DNA of 64,000 bases from the NCBI RefSeq assembly GCF_988242995.1, contig NZ_OZ547043.1. One strand, given 5' to 3'. The stretch's first letter is position 1. Every line of letters begins with the position of its first letter. The position numbers and the translations under genes are program-made. The notes under the pieces were generated by a model that was not told where the DNA came from, did not search any database, and saw only the letters and a list, made by a program, of their open reading frames with translations. Positions 30,986 through 36,603 of the stretch are shown one piece after another.

Positions 30986-33340
30986 ATGAATCCTGAGCGT
31001 TCTGAACGCATTGAAATCCCCGTATTGCCGCTGCGCGATGTGGTGGTTTATCCGCACATGGTCATCCCCTTATTTGTCGGGCGGGAAAAATCTATCCGTT
31101 GTCTGGAAGCGGCGATGGACCATGATAAAAAAATTATGCTGGTCGCGCAGAAAGAAGCTTCAACGGATGAGCCGGGTGTAAACGATCTTTTCACCGTCGG
31201 GACCGTGGCCTCTATATTGCAGATGCTGAAACTGCCTGACGGCACCGTCAAAGTGCTGGTCGAGGGGTTACAGCGCGCGCGTATTTCTGCGCTCTCTGAC
31301 AATGGCGAACACTTTTCTGCGAAGGCGGAGTATCTGGAGTCGCCAACCATTGATGAGCGGGAACAGGAAGTGCTGGTGCGTACTGCAATCAGCCAGTTCG
31401 AAGGCTACATCAAGCTGAACAAAAAAATCCCACCAGAAGTGCTGACGTCGCTGAATAGCATCGACGACCCGGCGCGTCTGGCGGATACCATTGCTGCACA
31501 TATGCCGCTGAAACTGGCTGACAAACAGTCCGTTCTGGAGATGTCCGACGTTAACGAACGTCTGGAATATCTGATGGCAATGATGGAATCGGAAATCGAT
31601 CTGCTGCAGGTTGAGAAACGCATTCGCAACCGCGTTAAAAAGCAGATGGAGAAATCCCAGCGTGAGTACTATCTGAACGAGCAAATGAAAGCTATTCAGA
31701 AAGAACTCGGTGAAATGGACGACGCGCCGGACGAAAACGAAGCCCTGAAGCGCAAAATCGACGCGGCGAAAATGCCGAAAGAGGCAAAAGAGAAAGCGGA
31801 AGCAGAGTTGCAGAAGCTGAAAATGATGTCTCCGATGTCGGCAGAAGCGACCGTAGTGCGTGGTTATATCGACTGGATGGTACAGGTGCCGTGGAATGCG
31901 CGTAGCAAGGTCAAAAAAGACCTGCGTCAGGCGCAGGAAATCCTTGATACCGACCATTATGGTCTGGAGCGCGTGAAAGATCGTATCCTTGAGTATCTTG
32001 CGGTTCAAAGCCGTGTCAACAAAATCAAAGGACCGATCCTCTGCCTGGTAGGGCCGCCGGGGGTAGGTAAAACCTCTCTTGGTCAGTCCATCGCCAAAGC
32101 CACCGGGCGTAAATATGTCCGTATGGCGCTGGGCGGCGTGCGTGATGAAGCGGAAATCCGTGGTCACCGCCGTACGTACATCGGTTCTATGCCGGGTAAA
32201 CTGATCCAGAAAATGGCGAAAGTGGGCGTGAAAAACCCGCTGTTCCTGCTTGATGAGATCGACAAAATGTCTTCTGACATGCGTGGCGATCCGGCCTCCG
32301 CACTGCTTGAAGTGCTGGATCCAGAGCAGAACGTAGCGTTCAGCGACCACTACCTGGAAGTGGATTACGATCTCAGCGACGTGATGTTTGTCGCGACGTC
32401 GAACTCCATGAACATTCCGGCACCGCTGCTGGATCGTATGGAAGTGATTCGCCTCTCCGGTTATACCGAAGATGAAAAACTGAACATCGCCAAACGTCAC
32501 CTGCTGCCGAAGCAGATTGAACGTAATGCACTGAAAAAAGGTGAGCTGACCGTCGACGATAGCGCCATTATCGGCATTATTCGTTATTACACCCGTGAGG
32601 CGGGCGTGCGTGGTCTGGAGCGTGAAATCTCCAAACTGTGTCGCAAAGCGGTTAAGCAGTTACTGCTCGATAAGTCATTAAAACATATCGAAATTAACGG
32701 TGATAACCTGCATGACTACCTCGGTGTTCAGCGTTTCGACTATGGACGCGCTGATAACGAAAACCGTGTCGGTCAGGTAACCGGTCTGGCGTGGACGGAA
32801 GTGGGCGGTGACTTGCTGACCATTGAAACCGCGTGCGTTCCGGGGAAAGGCAAACTGACCTATACCGGATCGCTTGGCGAAGTGATGCAGGAGTCCATTC
32901 AGGCGGCGTTAACGGTGGTTCGTGCGCGTGCGGAAAAACTGGGGATCAACCCTGATTTTTACGAAAAACGCGACATCCACGTCCACGTACCGGAAGGTGC
33001 GACGCCGAAAGATGGTCCGAGTGCCGGTATTGCTATGTGCACCGCGCTGGTTTCTTGCCTGACCGGTAACCCGGTTCGTGCCGATGTGGCAATGACCGGT
33101 GAGATCACTCTGCGTGGTCAGGTACTGCCGATCGGTGGTTTGAAAGAAAAACTACTGGCAGCGCATCGCGGCGGGATTAAAACAGTGCTAATTCCGTTCG
33201 AAAATAAACGCGATCTGGAAGAGATTCCTGACAACGTAATTGCCGATCTGGACATTCATCCTGTGAAGCGCATTGAGGAAGTTCTGACTCTGGCGCTGCA
33301 AAATGAACCGTCTGGCATGCAGGTTGTGACTGCAAAATAG
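30986..33340 (+). CDS. lon: ATP-dependent protease Lon
   Basis: ORF 30941-33340; start at [21 protein letters not shown] (784 aa); Walker [10 protein letters not shown]; catalytic Ser context PKDGPSAG. Confidence 0.97.
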
Positions 33341-33372
33341 TGACCTCGCGCAAAATGCACTAATAAAAACAG

Positions 33373-33408
33373 GGCTGGCAGGCTAATTCGGGCTTGCCAG
33401 CCTTTTTT
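33373..33408 (+). terminator. Rho-independent terminator after lon
   Basis: 11-bp stem ggctggcaggc/gcttgccagcc followed by tttttt. Confidence 0.7.
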
Positions 33409-33547
33409 GTCTCGCTAAGTTAGATGGCGGATCGGGCTTGCCCTTATTAAGGGGTGTTGTAAGGGGATGGCTGGCCTGATATAACTGCTGCGCGTTCGTA
33501 CCTTGAAGGATTCAAGTGCGATATAAATTATAAAGAGGAAGAGAAGA

Positions 33548-33820
33548 GTGAATAAATCTCAATTGATCGACAAGATTGCTGCAGGGGCTGATATCTCTAA
33601 AGCTGCGGCTGGCCGTGCGTTAGATGCTATTATTGCTTCCGTAACTGAATCTCTGAAAGAAGGGGATGATGTAGCACTGGTAGGTTTTGGTACTTTTGCC
33701 GTTAAAGAGCGTGCTGCCCGTACTGGCCGCAACCCGCAGACCGGTAAAGAGATCACCATCGCTGCCGCTAAAGTACCGAGCTTCCGTGCAGGTAAAGCAC
33801 TGAAAGACGCGGTAAACTAA
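33548..33820 (+). CDS. hupB: DNA-binding protein HU-beta
   Basis: 90-aa ORF, GTG start ([27 protein letters not shown]...). Confidence 0.96.
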
Positions 33821-33855
33821 GCGTTGTCCCCAGTGGGGATGTGACGAAGTTCAAG

Positions 33856-33881
33856 GGCGCATCTACTGATGTGCCTTTTTT
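33856..33881 (+). terminator. Rho-independent terminator after hupB
   Basis: ggcgcatc-tact-gatgtgcc stem-loop followed by tttttt. Confidence 0.65.
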
Positions 33882-34595
33882 GTGCACAGAAAACCCCCAG
33901 CTAGGCTGGGGGTTCCGGAAAGCTTTCAGCTTTGAGCCAGTTATTAAAACCCCTTTTGATTTGTTAAAACACCTTGCGGTCTGGCAACTGCAAGTGTCAA
34001 ACAAGAAATCAAAAGGGGGTCCCAATGGGGAACGAAAAGAGCTTAGCGCACACCCGATGGAACTGTAAATATCACATAGTTTTTGCGCCAAAATACCGAA
34101 GACAGGTGTTCTACAGAGAGAAGCGTAGAGCAATAGGCAGTATTTTGAGAAAGCTGTGTGAGTGGAAAAGCGTACGGATTCTGGAAGCTGAATGCTGTGC
34201 AGATCATATCCATATGCTTGTGGAGATCCCGCCCAAAATGAGCGTATCCGGGTTTATGGGATATCTGAAAGGGAAAAGCAGTCTGATGCTTTACGAGCAG
34301 TTTGGTGATTTGAAATTCAAATACAGGAACAGGGAGTTCTGGTGCAGAGGGTACTACGTCGATACAGTGGGTAAGAACACGGCGAAGATACAGGATTACA
34401 TAAAGCACCAGCTTGAAGAGGATAAAATGGGAGAGCAGTTATCGATTCCCTATCCGGGCAGCCCGTTTACGGGCCGTAAGTAACGAAGTTGGATGCAAAT
34501 GTCAGATCGTGTGCGCCTGTTAGGGCGCGGCTGGTAAGAGAGCCTTATAGGCGCATTTGAAAAACCTCCGGCTATGCCGGAGGATATTTATTTAT
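33882..34595 (+). mobile_element. IS200-like insertion sequence (IS200/IS605 family), ~0.71 kb; ends approximate (+/- ~20 bp)
   Basis: Single Y1/HUH transposase gene flanked by subterminal perfect hairpins (left cccccagc-tag-gctggggg at 33894-33912; right cctccggc-tat-gccggagg at 34565-34583); the hupB-ppiD spacer is ~0.9 kb here, much longer than I recall for K-12. Confidence 0.85.
34025..34483 (+). CDS. tnpA: IS200 transposase TnpA (Y1 HUH-type)
   Basis: ORF 33974-34483; start at MGNEKSLAHTRWNCKYHIVFAPKYRR (152 aa); HUH motif (ADHIHMLVEIPP) and C-terminal catalytic-Tyr region (GYYVDTVG). Confidence 0.9.
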   Translation: MGNEKSLAHTRWNCKYHIVFAPKYRRQVFYREKRRAIGSILRKLCEWKSVRILEAECCADHIHMLVEIPPKMSVSGFMGYLKGKSSLMLYEQFGDLKFKYRNREFWCRGYYVDTVGKNTAKIQDYIKHQLEEDKMGEQLSIPYPGSPFTGRK

Positions 34596-34723
34596 TTGTA
34601 TTCGGTGACTTTCTGCGTCTTGTGGGCTGACAATTGCCCCCGTTTCTTGTCACAATAGGCCTTTGCGCGCATCGATACGTTGCGTGAGGTACACAGTCAT
34701 CTACAGCGGAGTGTTGTTACACC

Positions 34724-36603
<1,880 letters not shown>

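What the first reader, a model, noticed from the sequence alone, without database searches (positions are those of the whole stretch)
33856..34723. IS200 sits immediately after the hupB terminator and ~130 bp upstream of ppiD: possible effect on ppiD stress-promoter context
The element starts within a few nucleotides of the hupB terminator T-tract (33876-33881). Its left-end hairpin (33894-33912) and right-end hairpin plus T-rich tail (34565-34600) are terminator-like, so read-through from hupB into ppiD should be blocked. The remaining 34596-34723 must contain the ppiD promoter(s); ppiD is heat-shock/envelope-stress regulated in K-12. Any upstream activator sites further than ~130 bp from the start codon would now be displaced by 0.7 kb.
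Basis: inference. Interest (0 to 1): 0.35.

Follow-up and report, generated by a model that had tools for sequence, protein, structure and literature searches.

The report
IS200 copy parked behind hupB terminator
A complete copy of the known mobile element IS200 sits exactly at the end of the hupB transcription terminator because this element habitually lands behind terminators, and it leaves the ppiD promoter intact, so it is most likely an ordinary, nearly neutral insertion.

Summary
A full-length IS200C element occupies 33882-34593. It is 712 bp in the window and 711 bp in the three database strains that carry it here. Its first base follows the last T of the hupB terminator T-tract, and its last base lies 130 bp before the ppiD ATG. 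There is no target duplication.

The placement follows the element's usual habit. In 19 of 20 distinct insertion sites (the 20th has a long-loop hairpin) the left end abuts a G+C hairpin followed by a T-rich tail. None of the 20 mirrored right flanks does. Among positions preceded by TTTT, 12-14% would do so by chance.

The insertion is rare: 3 of 5,426 complete E. coli genomes carry it, and the window is a fourth strain. Two IS subtypes about 4% apart occupy this site, so it was probably hit more than once.

The conserved sigma-32-like and sigma-70-like ppiD promoter block (34619-34658) lies downstream of the element and is untouched. Two things change. Read-through from hupB now meets three hairpins. 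Two CpxR-box-like motifs in the last hupB codons are moved 712 bp further away. Any effect on ppiD is untested and probably small.

The element is already known, and interest in the finding is low. The terminator-homing rule is the more interesting by-product.

The parts
33548..33820 (+). hupB (HU-beta) coding sequence
   Evidence: ORF list. RefSeq annotation of the same sequence in strains MEW, SC418 and KGu016.
33792..33816 (+). Two overlapping CpxR-box-like motifs (GTAAAGCACTGAAAG and GAAAGACGCGGTAAA) inside the last hupB codons, now 712 bp further from ppiD
   Evidence: These are the only matches with 2 or fewer mismatches to GTAAA-N5-GTAAA in 33500-34760 on either strand. Binding was not tested, and the motifs lie in coding sequence.
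33853..33881 (+). hupB intrinsic terminator: hairpin AAGGGCGCATC-TACT-GATGTGCCTT plus T-tract 33876-33881, which is the target of the insertion
   Evidence: Fold energy is -16.9 kcal/mol here and -16.4 in K-12. The K-12 version passes the terminator scan. The window version does not, because the distal ATTTGT is replaced by GTGCAC. The hairpin and T-run are conserved out to Pantoea and Budvicia.
33882..34593 (+). IS200C insertion sequence, complete. It is 712 bp here and 711 bp in the three database strains, and has no target duplication.
   Evidence: Comparison of empty and occupied sites. The element is a single copy in the window. The 711 bp shared with the W13-16 copy (L004) are identical; the window has one extra T at the right junction.
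33890..33893 (+). AAAA immediately 5' of the foot of the left hairpin, a candidate guide that could pair with the T-tract target
   Evidence: Read from the sequence. The inference is by analogy with the guide-target pairing described for the family (PMC6006769). Not tested.
33892..33914 (+). Left-end hairpin, the published bidirectional terminator of IS200 (nts 12-34) and the presumed transposase-binding hairpin
   Evidence: Fold energy -18.7 kcal/mol. Its position matches PMC4513863 and PMC5435999. It forms the first helix of the Rfam STnc490 match.
33950..34018 (+). [quoted passage not shown]
   Evidence: Fold energy -34.5 kcal/mol, z = -4.4. It corresponds to nts 69-138 of IS200 in PMC4513863 and to the second helix of the Rfam match.
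33945..34035 (-). Expected art200 (STnc490) antisense RNA gene
   Evidence: Placed only by transferring the Salmonella coordinates from PMC4513863 (start at IS nt 153/154, about 90 nt long). Not tested here.
34025..34483 (+). tnpA, an intact 152-aa Y1 (HUH) transposase
   Evidence: NCBIfam transpos_IS200 at 147.7 bits. Matches PDB chains 2ec2, 2f4f and 2a6m. Pfam PF01797. The HIH motif and the RGYY tyrosine align with the solved proteins.
34565..34593 (+). Right-end hairpin CCTCCGGC-TAT-GCCGGAGG (34565-34583) plus the T-rich tail ATATTTATTT. It is preceded by GAAAAA at 34559-34564.
   Evidence: Terminator-like on both strands. Fold energies -15.9 and -15.5 kcal/mol. A compensatory change to CCACCGG/CCGGTGG occurs in a Vibrio relative.
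34594..34723 (+). Native hupB-ppiD spacer retained downstream of the element, including the ppiD leader
   Evidence: Identical to K-12.
34619..34658 (+). Conserved ppiD promoter block. The sigma-32-like -35 is CTTGTGG (34619-34625) and the -10 is CCCCGTTT (34638-34645). The sigma-70-like pair is CTGACA (34627-34632), 18 nt, then TG-CACAAT (34651-34656).
   Evidence: Promoter scan. The block is conserved in E. albertii and two Citrobacter species, and C. werkmanii has the consensus CCCCATTT. The sigma-32 assignment is my reading of the consensus, and the transcription start site was not mapped.
34724..36595 (+). ppiD coding sequence
   Evidence: ORF list and RefSeq annotation.

Best explanation
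This is a complete and apparently functional copy of the known insertion sequence IS200C (IS200/IS605 family, IS200 group).

It inserted as single-stranded DNA, without a target duplication. Its left end was joined to the 3' edge of the T-tract of the hupB intrinsic terminator. Its top strand lies on the strand that serves as lagging-strand template.

That position is the element's normal landing place. IS200C and its close relatives join their left end to a G+C hairpin followed by a 5-10 nt T-rich tail ending in TT, which is the form of a host terminator. I infer one of two causes. The A-run 5' of the left hairpin may pair with the T-tract. Alternatively, a terminator in single-stranded DNA may resemble the element's own right end, which is an A-run, a G+C hairpin and a 9-nt T-rich tail.

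The element is transcriptionally closed at both ends. It leaves the hupB hairpin with six U's and the whole conserved ppiD promoter block in place. The expected consequences for ppiD are therefore limited to two. Any read-through from hupB is lost. Everything upstream moves 712 bp away, including two CpxR-box-like motifs.

The identity, boundaries, target rule, rarity and promoter retention are shown. The pairing mechanism and the small size of the effect on ppiD are inferred.
For: **Identity and anatomy.** See, with PMC4513863.

**Boundaries.**
- The boundaries and the absence of a duplication come from two pairs of empty and occupied sites.
- At hupB the empty site is CCTTTTTT|ATTTGT.
- At cof-decR the occupied site is CCCGGTTTTTTT[711 bp]TGCGTTG and the empty site is CCCGGTTTTTTTTGCGTTG.

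**Target rule.**
- 19 of 20 distinct E. coli sites have an ungapped hairpin plus T-rich tail directly before GTGCACAG. The 20th has a 6-bp stem with a long loop.
- The background rate in the window is 0.9% of all positions, 5-6% of positions after TT, and 12-14% of positions after TTTT.
- None of the 20 mirrored right flanks is terminator-like, and tails are 5-10 nt long.
- A called upstream gene ends 150-210 bp before the tnpA start in all 20 listed places. It is co-oriented in 19.
- The same habit appears in a Vibrio relative. In a Pectobacterium copy the left end abuts another IS200 right end.
- A 2025-26 preprint reports terminator-like sequences over-represented just upstream of insertion sequences, most strongly for IS200/IS605.

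**Strand.** GC skew is positive on the + strand, and the locus lies at 0.46 Mb on the + strand of a K-12-like record.

**Rarity and recurrence.**
- 3 of 5,426 genomes are occupied, and 5,422 match the reconstructed empty site.
- The window and MEW carry one IS subtype. KGu016 and SC418 carry another that differs at 27-30 of 711 positions.
- The four strains differ by 0.8-1.0% over 40 kb.

**Insulation.** The left hairpin is reported to stop about 85% of incoming transcripts (PMC5435999). The right hairpin is terminator-like on both strands. No outward-facing promoter-like site was found.

**Promoter.** The promoter block is retained and conserved.
Against: - The target rule rests on natural insertions that survived selection, so survivorship contributes to an unknown degree.
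- IS200 was first found as an insertion inside hisD (PMC4513863), so terminators are not the only possible targets.
- The guide-pairing idea has no informative covariation behind it. All three relatives examined keep an A-rich guide and T-rich flanks.
- The distal half of the hupB U-tract is changed, and the terminator no longer passes the simple scan. hupB termination could be somewhat weaker.
- I could not retrieve the mapped ppiD start sites or CpxR footprints. A real upstream activator site may have been displaced.
Confidence: 0.8

Rival explanations
1. The first reader's reading is that the insertion materially rewires ppiD. It would cut off read-through from the highly expressed hupB gene and move a CpxR activator site out of range. 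The strain would then have lower basal ppiD expression, weaker Cpx induction, or both, while heat-shock induction is kept.
For: - Three hairpins now lie between hupB and ppiD.
- The left one is reported to stop about 85% of incoming transcripts (PMC5435999).
- The only CpxR-box-like motifs (2 or fewer mismatches) lie upstream of the element.
- A published ppiD plasmid said to carry the natural promoter starts inside hupB, and so includes those motifs (PMC2956729).
Against: - No expression data exist.
- The hupB terminator already stands between the two genes in every strain.
- The boxes would lie about 137 bp upstream of the inferred start even without the element. They also overlap conserved codons, so their conservation is uninformative.
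- The conserved promoter block and about 25 bp of native sequence upstream of its -35 are intact.
- The insertion is rare and recurrent, which is what an element-driven event looks like.
Confidence: 0.2
2. The position behind the terminator would be a survivor effect and not a target preference. IS200 would insert at any short T-run, and only copies that fall in harmless spots just after terminators would persist.
For: - All sites studied are natural, long-standing insertions.
- Positions just after terminators are plausibly the least harmful places in a compact genome.
- The preprint interprets the association in terms of persistence.
Against: - The junction is exact: 0 nt from the end of the T-rich tail in 20 of 20 sites.
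- It is always the left end that abuts the tail. None of the 20 mirrored right flanks is terminator-like, even between convergent genes, where both orientations should be equally harmless.
- Even among TTTT positions only 12-14% follow a hairpin.
- Two sites, hupB and yfeX, are occupied at the same nucleotide by two IS subtypes.
Confidence: 0.15
3. There would have been one old insertion at this site. The two IS subtypes seen here would arise by gene conversion from other copies in each genome, and the empty site in nearly all strains would reflect precise excision or recombination, not independent insertions.
For: - The family excises precisely, so loss leaves no scar (PMC5027513 abstract).
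- Each genome carries many other copies as possible donors, with 13-20 places per record.
- The window and MEW share an identical flanking haplotype from about 33170 to 35700 but differ at 5 positions inside the element.
Against: - 5,422 of 5,426 genomes have the empty site.
- The nearest empty haplotypes are 99.8% identical to the window's flanks.
- The two subtype pairs also carry different right-flank haplotypes.
- The yfeX site shows the same two-subtype pattern, which recurrent targeting explains more simply.
Confidence: 0.25

Closest known systems
IS200 of Salmonella enterica and IS200C of E. coli (IS200/IS605 family, IS200 group)
   Same: - About 710 bp with a single 152-aa Y1 transposase gene, no inverted repeats and no target duplication.
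- A left-end terminator hairpin at nts 12-34.
- A leader stem-loop that hides the Shine-Dalgarno sequence.
- The STnc490/art200 region.
- See, with PMC4513863. The transposase is identical to one recorded in more than 21,000 blocks of the contig collection.
   Different: Nothing differs in kind; this is a copy of the known element. Only the site is unusual, being occupied in 3 of 5,426 genomes. The window's copy has one extra T at its right junction.
IS608 (Helicobacter pylori) and ISDra2 (Deinococcus), the mechanistic models of the family
   Same: - The same transposase fold, matching PDB chains 2a6m and 2xm3.
- Subterminal hairpins.
- The left end is joined 3' of a short target sequence.
- A tetranucleotide guide lies 5' of the hairpin foot (PMC6006769).
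- Use of the lagging-strand template.
   Different: According to PMC6006769, those elements recognise a conserved tetranucleotide flanking the left end, with no reported need for a hairpin in the target. Here the flank is a T-rich tail ending in TT and is preceded by a host hairpin in 19-20 of 20 sites.
Bacterial group IIC introns
   Same: They home to the 3' side of the stem-loop of Rho-independent terminators (PMC7923331). This is the same landing place as IS200C.
   Different: They are retroelements that recognise the target through intron RNA. IS200 is a DNA element moved by a Y1 transposase.
Insertion sequences that target repeated extragenic palindromes, such as ISPpu9 of Pseudomonas putida
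   Same: The element is found inside or next to intergenic hairpin sequences (PMC8450116 abstract).
   Different: They belong to a different transposase family, and their target is a repeated sequence family, not terminators of unrelated sequence.

Membership tests
IS200/IS605 family, IS200 group | Encodes a transposase of about 150 aa of the Y1 HUH type | tested here: met
   NCBIfam transpos_IS200 at 147.7 bits against a cut-off of 55. Pfam PF01797. Matches PDB chains 2ec2, 2f4f, 2a6m and 2xm3, with the HIH motif and the tyrosine aligned.
IS200/IS605 family, IS200 group | No terminal inverted repeats; subterminal hairpins at both ends | tested here: met
   The hairpins lie at 33892-33914 and 34565-34583. 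The ends GTGCACAG... and ...ATATTTATT are unrelated to each other.
IS200/IS605 family, IS200 group | Insertion without target-site duplication | tested here: met
   Two pairs of empty and occupied sites, at hupB and at cof-decR.
IS200/IS605 family, IS200 group | Left end always joined 3' of a short conserved target sequence | tested here: met
   TT immediately precedes the left end in 20 of 20 E. coli sites and in 3 sites of relatives. The flank is T-rich.
IS200/IS605 family, IS200 group | Active strand lies on the lagging-strand template | tested here: inconclusive
   For this copy, GC skew is positive on the + strand and the locus lies on the + strand at 0.46 Mb of a K-12-like record. For other copies, the orientation pattern in three complete genomes fits. 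However, I placed their replication origins from my own knowledge of the K-12 map, not with a tool.
IS200/IS605 family, IS200 group | IS200-specific leader: terminator hairpin at nts 12-34, Shine-Dalgarno-hiding stem-loop at nts 69-138, and the STnc490/art200 region | tested here: met
   Rfam RF01405 at 146.4 bits covering model positions 1-124. Folds. Coordinates agree with PMC4513863.
IS200/IS605 family, IS200 group | Transposes through a circular single-stranded intermediate | not testable with these tools
   This needs an in vivo or in vitro assay.
Intrinsic (Rho-independent) terminator of hupB | G+C-rich hairpin followed directly by a U-tract | tested here: met
   An 11-pair stem, -16.4 to -16.9 kcal/mol, followed by six T's. 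After the insertion the distal T's are lost, and the simple scan no longer reports it.
Sigma-32 (heat-shock) promoter for ppiD | -35 CTTGAAA and -10 CCCCATNT at about 12-14 nt spacing, with a transcription start downstream | tested here: inconclusive
   CTTGTGG, 12 nt, then CCCCGTTT at 34619-34645. The pair is conserved, and C. werkmanii has CCCCATTT. The consensus is from my own knowledge. The start site was not mapped, and the mapping paper was not retrievable.
CpxR-activated promoter | CpxR box GTAAA-N5-GTAAA near the start site, bound by CpxR~P | tested here: inconclusive
   Two 2-mismatch matches lie at 33792-33816, upstream of the element, and none lies in the retained 130 bp. Binding cannot be tested here.

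The most novel reading that the evidence does not exclude
IS200-group elements may be terminator-homing transposons. On this reading their transposase treats a host intrinsic terminator, exposed as single-stranded DNA on the lagging-strand template, as a structured target. The target would be a hairpin plus a T-rich tail that mimics the element's own right end. The element's left end would be joined at the 3' edge of the tail.

This would be a requirement for a hairpin in the target that has not been described for IS608 or ISDra2. It would explain several things:
- why IS200 copies are so harmless and long-lived;
- why the same terminators are hit repeatedly (hupB, yfeX);
- why tandem junctions of a right end with a left end occur.

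In the searchable literature I found only a statistical report of the association (preprint), not this base-level rule.
Probability: 0.45. Interest if true: 0.55.

Novelty: already known. Interest (0 to 1): 0.25.

Why it matters
For ppiD the insertion matters little. It offers a natural, rare variant in which hupB and ppiD are separated by a transcriptionally closed 0.7-kb block. That variant could be used to ask two questions: how much ppiD transcription comes from hupB read-through, and whether sequences inside hupB contribute to Cpx control.

The wider value lies in the rule behind the placement. If IS200 picks terminators as targets, three things follow. Its insertions can be predicted. 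Its reputation as a silent, ancestral passenger is explained by where it lands. Repeated occupation of the same site in unrelated strains should then not be read as shared ancestry in IS200-based typing.

Tried and rejected
- **Papers on ppiD regulation.** I tried to read the papers that mapped the ppiD promoter and its CpxR regulation (PMID 9670013, PMC1170731, doi 10.1128/JB.00798-08) and the family review (PMID 26350330). None is held. Searches for ppiD with CpxR or GTAAA gave only general statements.
- **Genome-collection scan.** The scan with a degenerate pattern for the hupB 3' end was too broad. Among the 80 loci listed, most came from unrelated proteobacteria and only five from Enterobacterales. 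The phylogenetic footprint therefore rests on few and mostly close species.
- **Redundant look-up.** One contig look-up repeated an earlier one, because the L003 transposase is identical to the window's.
- **Vibrio contigs.** Most break at the element, so only two left flanks could be read.
- **Replication origins.** The records CP068819 and OZ039874 are not in the annotated collection. I could not place their origins with a tool.
- **Rejected: the window is one of the three database strains.** It differs from each by 0.8-1.0% over 40 kb and lacks KGu016's second copy.
- **Rejected: the left-flank hairpins belong to the element.** They differ at every site, and the hupB and cof hairpins are present in the empty sites.
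- **Rejected: the Rfam Ysr202 match at 34560-34666.** It scores 27 bits against a gathering score of 315 and reflects only the terminator-like hairpin.
- **Rejected: an outward promoter in the element reading into ppiD.** No promoter-like site was found.
Full report
**1. What is there**

The window carries lon, hupB (33548-33820), a 152-aa ORF (34025-34483) and ppiD (34724-36595), all on the + strand. I aligned 33800-34740 with a K-12-like strain that lacks the insert and with strain MEW, which has it. The empty site reads ...GATGTGCCTTTTTT|ATTTGTATTCGG. The inserted block is 33882-34593. It begins GTGCACAGAAAACCCCC and ends GGAGGATATTTATTT.

The block is 712 bp long here. In the three database strains it is 711 bp, because they lack one T at the right junction. 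No bases are duplicated at the junction. The run of T's allows the boundaries to be drawn up to 3 nt further left.

A second pair of empty and occupied sites, at cof-decR in strain KGu016, shows the same behaviour. The occupied site is CCCGGTTTTTTT[711 bp]TGCGTTG, and the empty site is CCCGGTTTTTTTTGCGTTG.

**2. What it is**

The ORF is an IS200/IS605 family Y1 transposase.
- NCBIfam transpos_IS200 scores 147.7 bits against a cut-off of 55.
- It matches the solved transposases of Sulfolobus IS200, IS608 and ISDra2, with the HIH motif and the tyrosine aligned.
- The contig collection records Pfam PF01797 for it.
- RefSeq calls the gene in the same place an IS200C family transposase.

The non-coding anatomy matches published IS200 point by point (PMC4513863).
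- A hairpin lies at 33892-33914, which corresponds to nts 12-34. Its energy is -18.7 kcal/mol.
- A long leader stem-loop lies at 33950-34018, which corresponds to nts 69-138. Its energy is -34.5 kcal/mol, and it buries the Shine-Dalgarno sequence.
- A right-end hairpin lies at 34565-34583, with an energy of -15.9 kcal/mol. It is terminator-like on both strands.
- Rfam STnc490 matches 33892-34015 over its full length at 146 bits.

The element is present once in the window.

**3. Why it sits at the terminator**

I collected other copies by looking up contigs that encode the identical transposase and a 4%-diverged subtype, and from two BLAST hits. This gave 20 distinct sites.

In all 20, the bases just before GTGCACAG are a G+C-rich hairpin of unrelated sequence followed by a T-rich tail of 5-10 nt ending in TT.
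- A simple ungapped definition finds such a structure at 19 of the 20 sites. The definition requires a stem of at least 5 pairs with at least 3 G-C pairs, a loop of 3-8, and a tail of 3-10 nt that is at least 60% T.
- The 20th site (yfeX) has a 6-bp stem with a 16-nt loop.
- In the window the same definition is met by 0.9% of all positions, 5-6% of positions after TT, and 12-14% of positions after TTTT.
- Applied in mirror image to the right flanks, it finds none in 20.
- A called upstream gene ends 150-210 bp before the tnpA start in all 20 listed places, and it is co-oriented in 19. For the upstream genes I recognised, my reading of the K-12 map places them co-directional with replication.

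The habit extends to relatives. Both readable left flanks of a Vibrio rotiferianus relative (89% identical transposase) are a hairpin plus T tail. In a Pectobacterium copy the left end abuts the hairpin and T tail of another IS200 right end. In Yersinia, IS1541 is reported between pheL and pheA, which places it just after an attenuator terminator (PMC3082878).

A recent preprint reports terminator-like sequences over-represented just upstream of insertion sequences, most strongly for IS200/IS605. The association is therefore at least partly reported. I did not find the base-level rule in the searchable literature.

**4. How it most likely works**

*Shown:* the left end is joined at the 3' edge of a terminator's T tail. 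There is no duplication. Only the left end shows the association.

*Inferred:* the family's known mechanism uses a short guide 5' of each hairpin foot to pair with the cleavage site, and the target equals the sequence flanking the left end (PMC6006769). Here the guide position holds AAAA (33890-33893) at the left end and GAAAAA (34559-34564) at the right end. These fit a T-run target and the T-rich right-end tail.

The right end is an A-run, a G+C hairpin and a 9-nt T-rich tail, which is the form of a bidirectional terminator. A host terminator may therefore be taken as a look-alike of the right end. The three relatives examined all keep A-rich guides and T-rich flanks, so covariation cannot test this idea.

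The + strand has positive GC skew. It corresponds to the + strand at 0.46 Mb of a K-12-like chromosome. The element's top strand therefore lies on the lagging-strand template, as the family's replication-coupled mechanism expects.

**5. Population picture**

Only 3 of 5,426 complete E. coli genomes carry the element at this site:
- SC418, from sediment in the USA;
- KGu016, from river water in Japan;
- MEW, from an ivory gull in Poland.

A reconstructed empty site matches 5,422 genomes in one piece, and the best matches are 99.8% identical. The window is a fourth strain. It differs from each of the three by 0.8-1.0% over 40 kb, and from K-12 by 1.6%.

The copies at this site fall into two subtypes that differ at 27-30 of 711 positions. 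The window and MEW carry one subtype, with 5 differences between them. KGu016 and SC418 carry the other, with 2 differences. The two pairs also carry different right-flank haplotypes. The yfeX terminator is likewise occupied by both subtypes in different strains.

Repeated hits on the same terminator are the simplest reading. A single old insertion followed by gene conversion and precise loss cannot be excluded.

**6. Consequences for hupB and ppiD**

*hupB terminator.* The hairpin and six T's remain (-16.9 against -16.4 kcal/mol). The distal ATTTGT is replaced by GTGCAC. The K-12 version passes the simple terminator scan, and the window version does not. Any extra read-through meets the left-end hairpin, which is reported to stop about 85% of incoming transcripts (PMC5435999). 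It then meets the right-end hairpin.

*ppiD promoter.* Downstream of the element, the 130 bp before ppiD are identical to K-12. They contain a block, TTGTGGGCTGACAATTGCCCCCGTTTCTTGTCACAATAG, that is conserved in E. albertii and two Citrobacter species. Within it I read two promoters.
- A sigma-32-like promoter: CTTGTGG, 12 nt, then CCCCGTTT. C. werkmanii has CCCCATTT at the -10.
- A sigma-70-like promoter: CTGACA, 18 nt, then TG-CACAAT. This is the only + strand promoter-like site in the region.

Published work states that the natural ppiD promoter responds to sigma-32 and to Cpx (PMC2956729). I could not retrieve the mapping data.

*CpxR-like boxes.* The only near-matches to the CpxR consensus lie at 33792-33816, in the last hupB codons. 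Without the element they would be about 137 bp upstream of the inferred start. With it they are about 850 bp away. A rule cited in two papers links strong Cpx control to a motif within 100 bp of the start. On that rule these boxes would be weak contributors at best.

*Outward transcription.* No promoter-like site faces out of the element towards ppiD.

**7. Verdict**

Blocking of read-through and displacement of upstream sequence are real features of the sequence. The core promoter is untouched and no effect has been shown. The position is explained by the element's own target choice.

The element is already known and already annotated in public genomes. Interest in the finding as given is low. 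The terminator-homing rule that explains it is the more interesting result and is directly testable.

Noticed in passing
L159 about 1000-1100 (Pectobacterium parmentieri PSZH01000003.1, about 875 kb): An IS200 left end (GTGCCCAGAAAGCCCCC...) directly abuts the right-end hairpin and T tail of another IS200 copy or remnant (...CCGGAGGATATTTTTTTT|GTGCCCAG). An IS200 right end therefore seems to have served as a target, or the two copies form a tandem.
   Followed up: partly
L016 27312-28022 (strain KGu016, between cof and decR): A second IS200 copy lies 7 kb downstream of the hupB copy, again directly after a terminator T-tract. It is absent from the window, SC418 and MEW. I used it as a second pair of empty and occupied sites.
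   Followed up: yes
L004 versus L027 (yfeX terminator site): The same terminator is occupied at the same nucleotide by IS subtype A in one strain and subtype B in another. This parallels the hupB site. Site sharing in IS200 typing need not mean shared ancestry.
   Followed up: partly
window 33397-33402 (lon terminator T-tract): The window has one T fewer in the lon terminator T-run than the four other strains aligned. This could be a real length variant or a homopolymer sequencing error.
   Followed up: no
window 34591-34593: The window's IS copy has one more T at its right junction than the three database strains at the same site, making it 712 bp and not 711 bp. The cause could be a variant cleavage point, slippage or a sequencing error.
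   Followed up: partly
window 33892-34015: The Rfam STnc490 model matches the tnpA-sense (+) strand, including the left-end terminator hairpin. PMC4513863 describes STnc490/art200 as the RNA antisense to the tnpA leader. The Rfam model seems to represent the sense leader.
   Followed up: no
L047 (Citrobacter werkmanii), ppiD leader: The ppiD 5' leader carries an extra segment of about 76 bp with internal complementarity, absent from Escherichia and from the other Citrobacter. It may be a small repeat element.
   Followed up: no
L017 3120-4948 (strain SC418, between yajR and cyoE): SC418 carries three extra genes here that are absent from KGu016, MEW and K-12: a TPR protein, a GNAT acetyltransferase and a DUF1778 protein. 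The last two look like a toxin-antitoxin pair. I did not check the window for them.
   Followed up: no
L151, L150, L152-L158 (Vibrio rotiferianus IS200 relative): The right-end hairpin shows a compensatory double change compared with E. coli, from CCTCCGG/CCGGAGG to CCACCGG/CCGGTGG. This supports selection for the hairpin itself.
   Followed up: partly
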